Below are positions 23,922 to 23,965 of a stretch of DNA of 64,000 bases, one piece after another. Source of the DNA: Malacoraja senta (lineage: Eukaryota); NCBI GenBank assembly GCA_038087875.1, contig CM075990.1, positions 17,672,001 to 17,736,000 on the forward strand, read 5' to 3'. The notes beneath the pieces are model-generated. The model was given only the letters and a program-made list of their open reading frames with translations, was not told where the DNA came from and did not search any database. The position numbers were made by a program, and so were the translations under genes. Numbering within the stretch: the first letter of the stretch is position 1; each line of letters opens with the position of its first letter.

Positions 23922-23965
23922 GAATGGGTCTGAAGAAGGGTTTCGACCCGAAACGTCACCTATTC
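23922..23965 (+). ncRNA. Minimal type I hammerhead ribozyme motif inside a PLE-derived palindromic element
   Basis: Stem I GAATGGGT/ACCTATTC; core CTGAAGA (23930-23936); stem II GGGT-TTCG-ACCC; GAAA (23950-23953); CG; TC, with predicted cleavage after C23957. Confidence 0.65.

What the first reader, a model, noticed from the sequence alone, without database searches (positions are those of the whole stretch)
23922..23965. Complete minimal hammerhead ribozyme at the apex of a palindromic Penelope-derived element
Seen: an 8-bp stem I (GAATGGGT/ACCTATTC, one G-U), conserved core CUGAAGA plus one extra A, stem II GGGU-UUCG-ACCC, then GAAA-CG-UC. Stem III is only the self-complementary ACGU. Imperfect inverted arms (about 23875-24018) extend stem I. 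Established: Penelope-like elements carry minimal type I hammerheads with a short palindromic stem III that are thought to cleave as dimers. Inference: this copy, about 650 bp upstream of the SPEF1-like promoter, could self-cleave after C23957.
Basis: partly seen in the sequence, partly recalled or inferred. Interest (0 to 1): 0.8.

Follow-up and report, generated by a model that had tools for sequence, protein, structure and literature searches.

The report
Penelope hammerhead remnant with accidental stem
A letter-perfect minimal hammerhead ribozyme core sits in a 185-base leftover of a very common Penelope-like jumping gene; its long first stem is supplied by a mirror-image piece of the same element joined next to it, and this lone copy is likely inert, so it is an ordinary member of a known kind.

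Summary
The motif is there letter for letter and is beyond chance (0 of 200 shuffled windows give core plus stem I of 4 bp or more). It lies in a 185-bp head-to-head insertion (23833-24017, 12-bp target duplication, tail on one arm) of the terminal repeat of a Neptune-type Penelope-like element; the repeat has 28 loci in this window and is tied to RT/GIY-YIG remnants here. Extra A, G10.1-C11.1 and ACGU match the minimal hammerheads published in 2014. The 8-bp stem I is not native: its 5' strand is the inner end of the inverted arm (11/13 match, against 4-6/13 to the native upstream), and the other 4 core-bearing copies have 1-2 bp. Stem II shows no compensatory change (0 of 4 pairs, 17 copies); the core decays like its neighbours (p=0.65). 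A cleaving dimer needs swapped stem I strands and is predicted less stable than two hairpins. Copy 5' ends pile just before the core, not at the cut. Verdict: new member of a known kind, probably inert; cleavage untested.

The parts
23821..23832 (+). Left target-site duplication (12 bp, 11 identical to the right one)
23833..23868 (-). Tail of the Penelope terminal repeat, present on the left arm only
   Evidence: reverse complement resembles the sequence after copy 2720-2820; one-sided tail described in PMC8557442 and PMC3846280
23869..23929 (-). Inverted (left) arm: 5'-truncated repeat copy that lacks the hammerhead core; 7 bases missing before 23917; its innermost 8 bases are the 5' strand of stem I
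   Evidence: arm-to-arm 7 of 38 mismatches
23922..23929 (+). Stem I 5' strand, junction-made; last two bases GT are shared by both arms (microhomology)
   Evidence: 23917-23929 matches the inverted arm 11/13 and the native upstream 4-6/13 in 4 copies
23930..23957 (+). Minimal hammerhead core: C3-A9, extra A, 4-bp stem II with UUCG loop (family majority CUCG), G12-A15.1, palindromic ACGU, C17
23958..23965 (+). Stem I 3' strand, native repeat sequence after the would-be cut
23928..24017 (+). Direct (right) arm: repeat copy starting at the family's usual 5' boundary; 7 of its first 62 bases differ from the majority of 13 other copies
24018..24029 (+). Right target-site duplication
25525..25981 (-). 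Same-type repeat copy with native upstream, joined to a remnant coding the C-terminus of the GIY-YIG domain (context: shows Penelope origin)
   Evidence: 79% over 104 nt, 71% over 35 aa to 27966-28074
26765..28347 (+). 5'-truncated, broken Neptune-type Penelope-like element of a sister subfamily (RT, Cys linker, GIY-YIG, terminal repeat from 28218), nested in a repeat copy with a 13-bp duplication (context)
24222..24330 (.). Neighbouring head-to-head remnant of the same family without a core; predicted to compete for the arms in a longer RNA (context)

Best explanation
This is a 185-bp head-to-head leftover of the terminal repeat of a Neptune-type Penelope-like retrotransposon, carrying the family's minimal hammerhead core, whose 8-bp stem I is made by the inverted arm and which is likely inert at this locus. 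Shown: the core, the target duplication, the one-sided tail, the link of the repeat to RT/GIY-YIG remnants, the origin of the stem I 5' strand from the inverted arm. Inferred: the right arm was copied from an uncut element RNA up to its usual 5' boundary just before the core; an inverted second copy was joined to it at a two-base GT match, during integration or by a later deletion at the hairpin's tip; the join falls at the cut site because the native upstream bases are partly complementary to the bases after the cut (5 of 8 positions equal between the native upstream of copy 51192 and the inverted strand), so annealing is favoured there without any cleavage. Predicted: a transcript folds into one long hairpin with core and stem II at its tip; with no stem III it cannot cut alone, and the cutting double-hammerhead would need two such RNAs to swap arms.
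For: Repeat at 28 loci in 64 kb and 118,598-136,005 contigs laid per run in 4 of 4 runs. Junction origin 11/13 vs 4-6/13. Stem I of the 5 descriptor sites: 8, 2, 1, 2, 2 bp; outer six stem I pairs unpaired in 7-13 of 17 copies; native register probability 0.07 or less in 7 of 7 other copies folded. In all 4 runs the largest listed pile of loose ends is before 23928 (2,281-3,014 contigs), its mixed consensus ending in TCA, not in the focal letters (table 7). Centres of the 10 head-to-head loci all differ; by eye several have 2-4 base matches between the arms. Core 15 of 170 non-CpG cells changed vs 44 of 425 beside it, p=0.65; an untouched 12-base core has probability about 0.24 at this copy's 7/62 divergence. 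Double hammerhead -25.7 vs two monomers -27.4 kcal/mol (44-mer), -124.3 vs -126.0 (157-mer); best dimer of the 44-mer is a different fold at -33.9. In 23700-24350 stem I falls to 0.01 and stem II to 0.26. PMC4209133: single minimal motif showed no cleavage, dimers little. PMC11167929: uncut RNA is the main insertion substrate and the ribozyme needed the element's protein.
Against: The core is fully intact with ACGU, which holds for only 2 of 17 aligned copies. In RNAs of 44-201 nt the hammerhead-like fold is dominant. The dimer penalty is only 1.7 kcal/mol, within the error of the model. The left arm ends exactly at the cut site if the shared GT is given to it, and two more of 10 left arms end 2-9 bases downstream. 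The insertion appears shared with three related species (table 8), so it has persisted. Stem II is paired in 95.6% of cells, with 8 one-sided changes that keep pairing and 3 breaks. No cleavage or expression data were obtained.
Confidence: 0.8

Rival explanations
1. The junction is a fossil of real cleavage: the left arm was copied from an element RNA that the hammerhead had cut, so its inner end lies at the cut, and it was joined to a copy of an uncut RNA.
For: Left arm can be read to end exactly at the base after C17. Locus 21289-21464 has its join 2-4 bases away. 6 of the 32 listed contig pieces bridge the centre with 31 or more letters each side, 5 of them with 13-19 other letters, so similar short centres recur (table 8). 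The Anolis enzyme extends both target strands (PMC11167929), which could give two cDNAs from two RNAs (inference).
Against: The GT microhomology makes the end ambiguous by 2 bases and, with 5 of 8 upstream matches, explains the place without a cut. 0 of 14 truncated solo copies start at the cut, 7 of 14 start within 3 bases of the core's upstream edge; 6 of 10 right arms start there too. No pile of loose ends at 23958 among the 24 rows shown (2,047 rows not shown). PMC11167929 found no RNA-seq reads ending at the cut in Anolis.
Confidence: 0.1
2. The copy is an active ribozyme used by the host, cutting read-through or upstream transcripts about 650 bp before the SPEF1-like promoter.
For: Intact core and a strong stem I; same strand as the neighbouring ADAM-like and SPEF1-like genes; a 128-nt contig in another species bridges the centre at single-copy-like depth with 9 other letters and 1 gap (X3 record 20).
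Against: No stem III, so a partner RNA is needed; the nearest same-strand copies with a core region are 2.6 kb and 2.8 kb away, one lacking C3, the other with ACGU changed to AUGU. Longer context disrupts the fold. The copy is 11% diverged and its arms differ at 7 of 38; the bridging contig differs about as much as the flanks (9/127 vs 11/256 and 16/287). The family's 5' boundary motif is replaced by the junction.
Confidence: 0.05
3. The motif is a chance look-alike inside a hairpin-forming repeat.
For: No Rfam hammerhead match; no compensatory change in stem II.
Against: The core is the family majority in 17 copies, lies in the repeat that follows a Penelope-like ORF, and has the extra base, G10.1-C11.1 and palindromic 15.2-16.2 listed in PMC4209133; shuffles give 0.15 sites per window against 5 seen.
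Confidence: 0.01

Closest known systems
Minimal type I hammerheads (min-HHR) in the terminal repeats of metazoan Penelope-like elements (Cervera and de la Pena 2014, PMC4209133)
   Same: Conserved core, one extra base between positions 9 and 10.1, G10.1-C11.1, palindromic 15.2-16.2 with no loop 3, place in the terminal repeat, mostly scattered single copies.
   Different: Stem II is 4 bp (7-8 bp in the Schistosoma families); native helix I is only 1-2 bp (4-5 bp there, 2 bp in D. virilis); in this copy helix I is 8 bp but comes from an inverted duplication. No cartilaginous fish term in the supplementary file that could be searched (1 of 2).
Head-to-head Penelope insertions with inverted 5'-truncated terminal repeat, one-sided tail and target duplication (PMC3846280, PMC8557442)
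   Same: Inverted truncated copy at the 5' side, 36-base tail on one arm, 12-bp duplication, microhomology at the join.
   Different: Only the repeat is left (185 bp, no ORF), and the join falls at the hammerhead cut site.
Poseidon element of Anolis (PMC11167929)
   Same: Hammerhead in the terminal repeat; genomic copies come mostly from uncut RNA.
   Different: Other clade (this family has the Cys-rich linker of Neptune/Nematis); cleavage there was shown, with protein; here untested.
Non-LTR retrozymes of animals (bioRxiv 10.64898/2026.07.22.740005)
   Same: Non-coding, Penelope-derived, type I hammerhead; reported in the one chondrichthyan sampled.
   Different: Those are head-to-tail arrays with a ribozyme in each unit; this is a single head-to-head unit with one core.

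Membership tests
Minimal type I hammerhead of Penelope-like elements | Conserved core C3 U4 G5 A6 N7 G8 A9, G12 A13 A14 A15.1, U16.1 H17 | tested here: met
Minimal type I hammerhead of Penelope-like elements | Extra base between 9 and 10.1; G10.1-C11.1 pair; palindromic 15.2-16.2 | tested here: met
   A23937; G23938-C23949; CG 23954-55; features as listed in PMC4209133
Minimal type I hammerhead of Penelope-like elements | Helix II, supported by covariation | tested here: inconclusive
   95.6% of cells paired, 0 of 4 pairs with a change on both sides in 17 close copies
Minimal type I hammerhead of Penelope-like elements | Helix I of 2-5 bp or more encoded by the element | tested here: inconclusive
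   Native helix I 1-2 bp in 4 other core-bearing copies, at the low end of the published range; the 8 bp here is junction-made
Minimal type I hammerhead of Penelope-like elements | Lies in the terminal repeat of a Penelope-like element | tested here: met
Minimal type I hammerhead of Penelope-like elements | Self-cleavage as a dimer | not testable with these tools
   Only folding energies computed
Endonuclease-bearing Penelope-like element, Neptune type | RT followed by C-terminal GIY-YIG domain | tested here: met
   26765-27847 and 27853-28107 align at about 50% to P0014, which carries RVT_1 and GIY-YIG; this ORF belongs to a sister subfamily; the focal type is linked to a GIY-YIG C-terminal remnant only
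Endonuclease-bearing Penelope-like element, Neptune type | CX2-5CxxC linker between RT and endonuclease | tested here: met
   Present in P0014 and P0037; the window copy keeps the last two cysteines, first is Tyr; feature from PMC8557442, shared with Nematis
Endonuclease-bearing Penelope-like element, Neptune type | Placement in the Neptune clade on an RT tree | not tested
   No tree with named reference elements was built
Endonuclease-bearing Penelope-like element, Neptune type | Inverted truncated repeat, one-sided tail, target duplication | tested here: met
Canonical hammerhead (Rfam models) | Stable helix III; match to an Rfam hammerhead model | tested here: not met
   No helix III in the monomer; no match
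Non-LTR retrozyme | Two or more head-to-tail units each with a complete hammerhead | tested here: not met
   No tandem array at the locus; single core

The most novel reading that the evidence does not exclude
The inner end of the inverted arm marks hammerhead cleavage of the element's RNA in vivo, and this class of head-to-head junction rebuilds a full helix I for a ribozyme that natively has two base pairs, so that integration itself keeps making a scattered subclass of stronger, dimer-cutting ribozymes in cartilaginous fish genomes.
Probability: 0.08. Interest if true: 0.55.

Novelty: new member of a known kind. Interest (0 to 1): 0.15.

Why it matters
As it stands, little: minimal hammerheads in Penelope repeats and inverted junctions are both in print, and this is one decayed copy of a huge family. 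It would matter if arm ends were enriched at the cut site genome-wide, because whether these ribozymes cut in vivo and what for is open (PMC8557442 calls the function unclear; PMC11167929 found no cut ends). The family is so abundant that this can be tested from one assembly. The copy is also a ready natural construct for asking whether a long helix I helps or blocks dimer cleavage.

Tried and rejected
No whole genome is held, so genome-wide counts of junctions were not possible. Pattern scans found no copies in metagenome contigs or prokaryote genomes. Sequencing-run search: no RNA holder listed. Laid contigs cannot show RNA ends, and no listed piece spans the whole stretch; a same-species piece across the junction is not among the 32 shown of about 464,879. 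Rfam matches below gathering score (plastid UTR, microRNA hairpins) rejected as long-hairpin look-alikes. Pfam scan of 150 of 150 stop-to-stop frames of 42 aa or more overlapping 11800-24700 found only the SPEF1-like first exon and a weak DUF3136 match below cut-off: no host exon shown around the element, but short or low-complexity exons would be missed. The whole-structure covariation score above shuffles comes from helix I columns that are not homologous between copies and was not counted as support. The UUCG loop is a private C-to-T change (family CUCG), not a selected tetraloop. Lunse et al. (PMC5785218) is not held; seen only as a cited title and a review's summary. Paper searches: hammerhead+Penelope 45 papers, 25 listed; plus shark 1, a figure of speech; hammerhead ribozyme+Callorhinchus 0; Penelope+skate+transposable element+Chondrichthy 3, listings only. 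Supplement file 1 of PMC4209133 and the preprint's supplements could not be seen and may list chondrichthyan motifs.

Full report
Observation. The 44-mer folds into stem I and stem II with high pair probabilities and no intramolecular stem III. A descriptor of core plus 4-bp stem II finds 5 sites in the window; 200 shuffled windows give 0.15 on average and none with stem I of 4 bp or more. Rfam does not recognise it, as expected for a motif without helix III.

What it sits in. The sequence belongs to a repeat with 42 hits at 28 loci in the 64 kb. Laid on contigs of 4 of 24 listed runs (four coded species), 118,598-136,005 contigs per run matched the 751-base stretch at 80% or better, nearly all over the two repeat copies. 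The focal insertion runs 23833-24017 between 12-base duplications that agree at 11, with a 36-base tail on the left arm only. This is the arrangement described for Penelope-like elements: inverted 5'-truncated repeat, one-sided tail, target duplication (PMC8557442 and PMC3846280, passages). The window holds the proof of origin: 26765-28107 encodes a broken RT and GIY-YIG region about 50% identical to P0014 (RVT_1 plus GIY-YIG), followed by a sister version of the repeat at 28218. All 120 listed homologues carry PF26215 and many carry GIY-YIG; the best named one is a bamboo shark protein at 66%, which points to a cartilaginous fish. The focal type of repeat at 25525-25601 (minus) is joined upstream to a remnant 71% identical over 35 aa to that GIY-YIG C-terminus. 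The Cys-rich linker marks Neptune or Nematis; no tree was built.

Fit to the known motif. Cervera and de la Pena 2014 (PMC4209133, parts 1-2 of 4 read) list an extra base between 9 and 10.1, G10.1-C11.1 and a palindromic 15.2-16.2; all are met. So the 'extra A' and 'ACGU' are family features. They report no cleavage for a single motif and low cleavage for dimers. Frangieh et al. 2024 (PMC11167929, parts 1-2 of 4) found that the Anolis ribozyme cut only with the element's protein, that uncut RNA was the main insertion substrate, and no RNA-seq reads ending at the cut. A 2026 preprint (parts 1 and 3 of 5 and passages) reports Penelope-derived hammerhead arrays in the one chondrichthyan sampled and cleavage in 1 of 9 Xenopus dimers.

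Stem I is not native. Copies that keep their upstream read pyrimidine tract then (T)CAGT or CTGT before the core. The 13 bases 23917-23929 match the inverted arm at 11 and four native upstreams at 4-6. The other 4 descriptor sites have stem I of 1-2 bp; on 17 aligned copies the two inner pairs hold in 15, the six outer pairs in 4-10 (many of these upstream columns are unrelated flanks); 7 of 7 other copies folded give the register 0.07 or less. In all four runs the largest listed pile of loose ends lies before 23928 (2,281-3,014 contigs), with mixed letters ending in TCA; summed depth at 23927 is under 1% of that at 23942, and half or more of it reads A (depth is not copy number). The last two bases, GT, belong to both arms, and the native upstream of copy 51192 equals the inverted strand at 5 of 8, so annealing is favoured at this place (inference). 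The ten head-to-head centres in the window all differ.

No sign of selection. Stem II: 95.6% paired, 8 one-sided changes, 3 breaks, 0 of 4 pairs compensatory; close copies give this little power. Core cells change as often as their neighbours (15/170 vs 44/425, p=0.65). 5 of 17 copies keep the core, 2 of 17 keep core and ACGU. The focal arm differs from the majority at 7 of 62, so an untouched core has probability about 0.24. Contigs from three other species follow the left flank at 11-17 differences in about 256 bases and run into the tail; one 128-nt contig bridges the centre at a depth like the flanks with 9 other letters (table 8). I read this as an old shared insertion and a real junction; the letters of that contig were not shown, so core conservation in the orthologue is unknown.

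How it would work. With no loop 3, helix III can only form between two RNAs (ACGU with ACGU). In that double hammerhead the core and stem II of one RNA meet U16.1-C17 of the other, so stem I must also be between RNAs (follows from hammerhead topology). Computed, this costs 1.7 kcal/mol against two closed hairpins for both the 44-mer and the 157-mer, a different dimer is 8 kcal/mol better for the 44-mer, and the long arms would have to open a 63 kcal/mol hairpin. With 651 nt of context the neighbouring remnant at 24222-24330 takes the arms: stem I 0.01, stem II 0.26. The nearest same-strand partners are 2.6 kb and 2.8 kb away and damaged. A short transcript at high concentration might cut in a tube; cutting at this locus in a cell is unlikely. 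The SPEF1-like gene is real enough (CH_2; start codon 25406), and a motif I recall as an RFX X-box lies at 24624-24636, about 660 bases downstream; nothing shows that a transcript covers the element.

Against my reading. The left arm can be read to end exactly at the cut; two more of 10 left arms end 2-9 bases downstream; 6 of 32 listed contig pieces bridge similar centres. But 0 of 14 truncated solo copies start at the cut while 7 of 14, and 6 of 10 right arms, start within 4 bases of the core's upstream edge (the other 4 of 18 solo loci keep their native upstream and were left out of this count). This fits copying from uncut RNA. Earlier AI notes on other genomes report the same patterns; I treat them as leads, the counts here are my own.

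Verdict. Real motif, known kind, junction-made stem I, probably inert. New member of a known kind; interest 0.15. I found no paper on this family's hammerhead in the searches and the one searchable supplement; unseen supplements and subscription papers may hold it.

Noticed in passing
window 13516-, 19554-, 26703+, 39709+, 46714+, 55386+, 63565+ and six right arms: 5' ends of the repeat pile up within 4 bases of TCAGT directly before the core. The native TCAGTCT fits the initiator consensus as I recall it, and the pyrimidine tract plus CAG also looks like a splice acceptor; either could define the RNA's 5' end and explain the 2-bp native helix I. Penelope has an internal promoter in Drosophila (PMC2377424, passages).
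   Followed up: partly
window 26701-28379: A 5'-truncated Penelope-like element of a sister subfamily is nested inside an older repeat copy, with a 13-bp identical duplication (26754-66, 28348-60); its ORF has an internal deletion between linker and GIY-YIG.
   Followed up: partly
window 21289-21464: A second head-to-head copy with nearly the same short centre, but C3 is lost at the join.
   Followed up: partly
window 628-804 and 1560-1718: 66-bp head-to-tail arrays of the repeat (2.7 and 2.4 units) that start at GAAACGTC and so lack the first half of the core; the two arrays are near-identical and opposite in strand.
   Followed up: no
alignment A1, stem II: Changes fall almost only on the 3' strand of stem II (10 cells vs 1 on the 5' strand in 17 copies), mostly keeping G-U pairs; CpG decay and subfamily variants explain part of it.
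   Followed up: no
window 24780-25394: GC-rich 7/14-bp tandem array (about 610 bp) between the putative promoter and the SPEF1-like start codon at 25406.
   Followed up: no
window 39695-39820: Solo repeat copy flanked by what looks like a 14-bp target duplication.
   Followed up: no
window 2800-11800 (+), 50900-55900 (+), 5435-5634: ADAM-type exons (Disintegrin, ADAM_CR) and an O-methyltransferase exon; a 200-N assembly gap.
   Followed up: no
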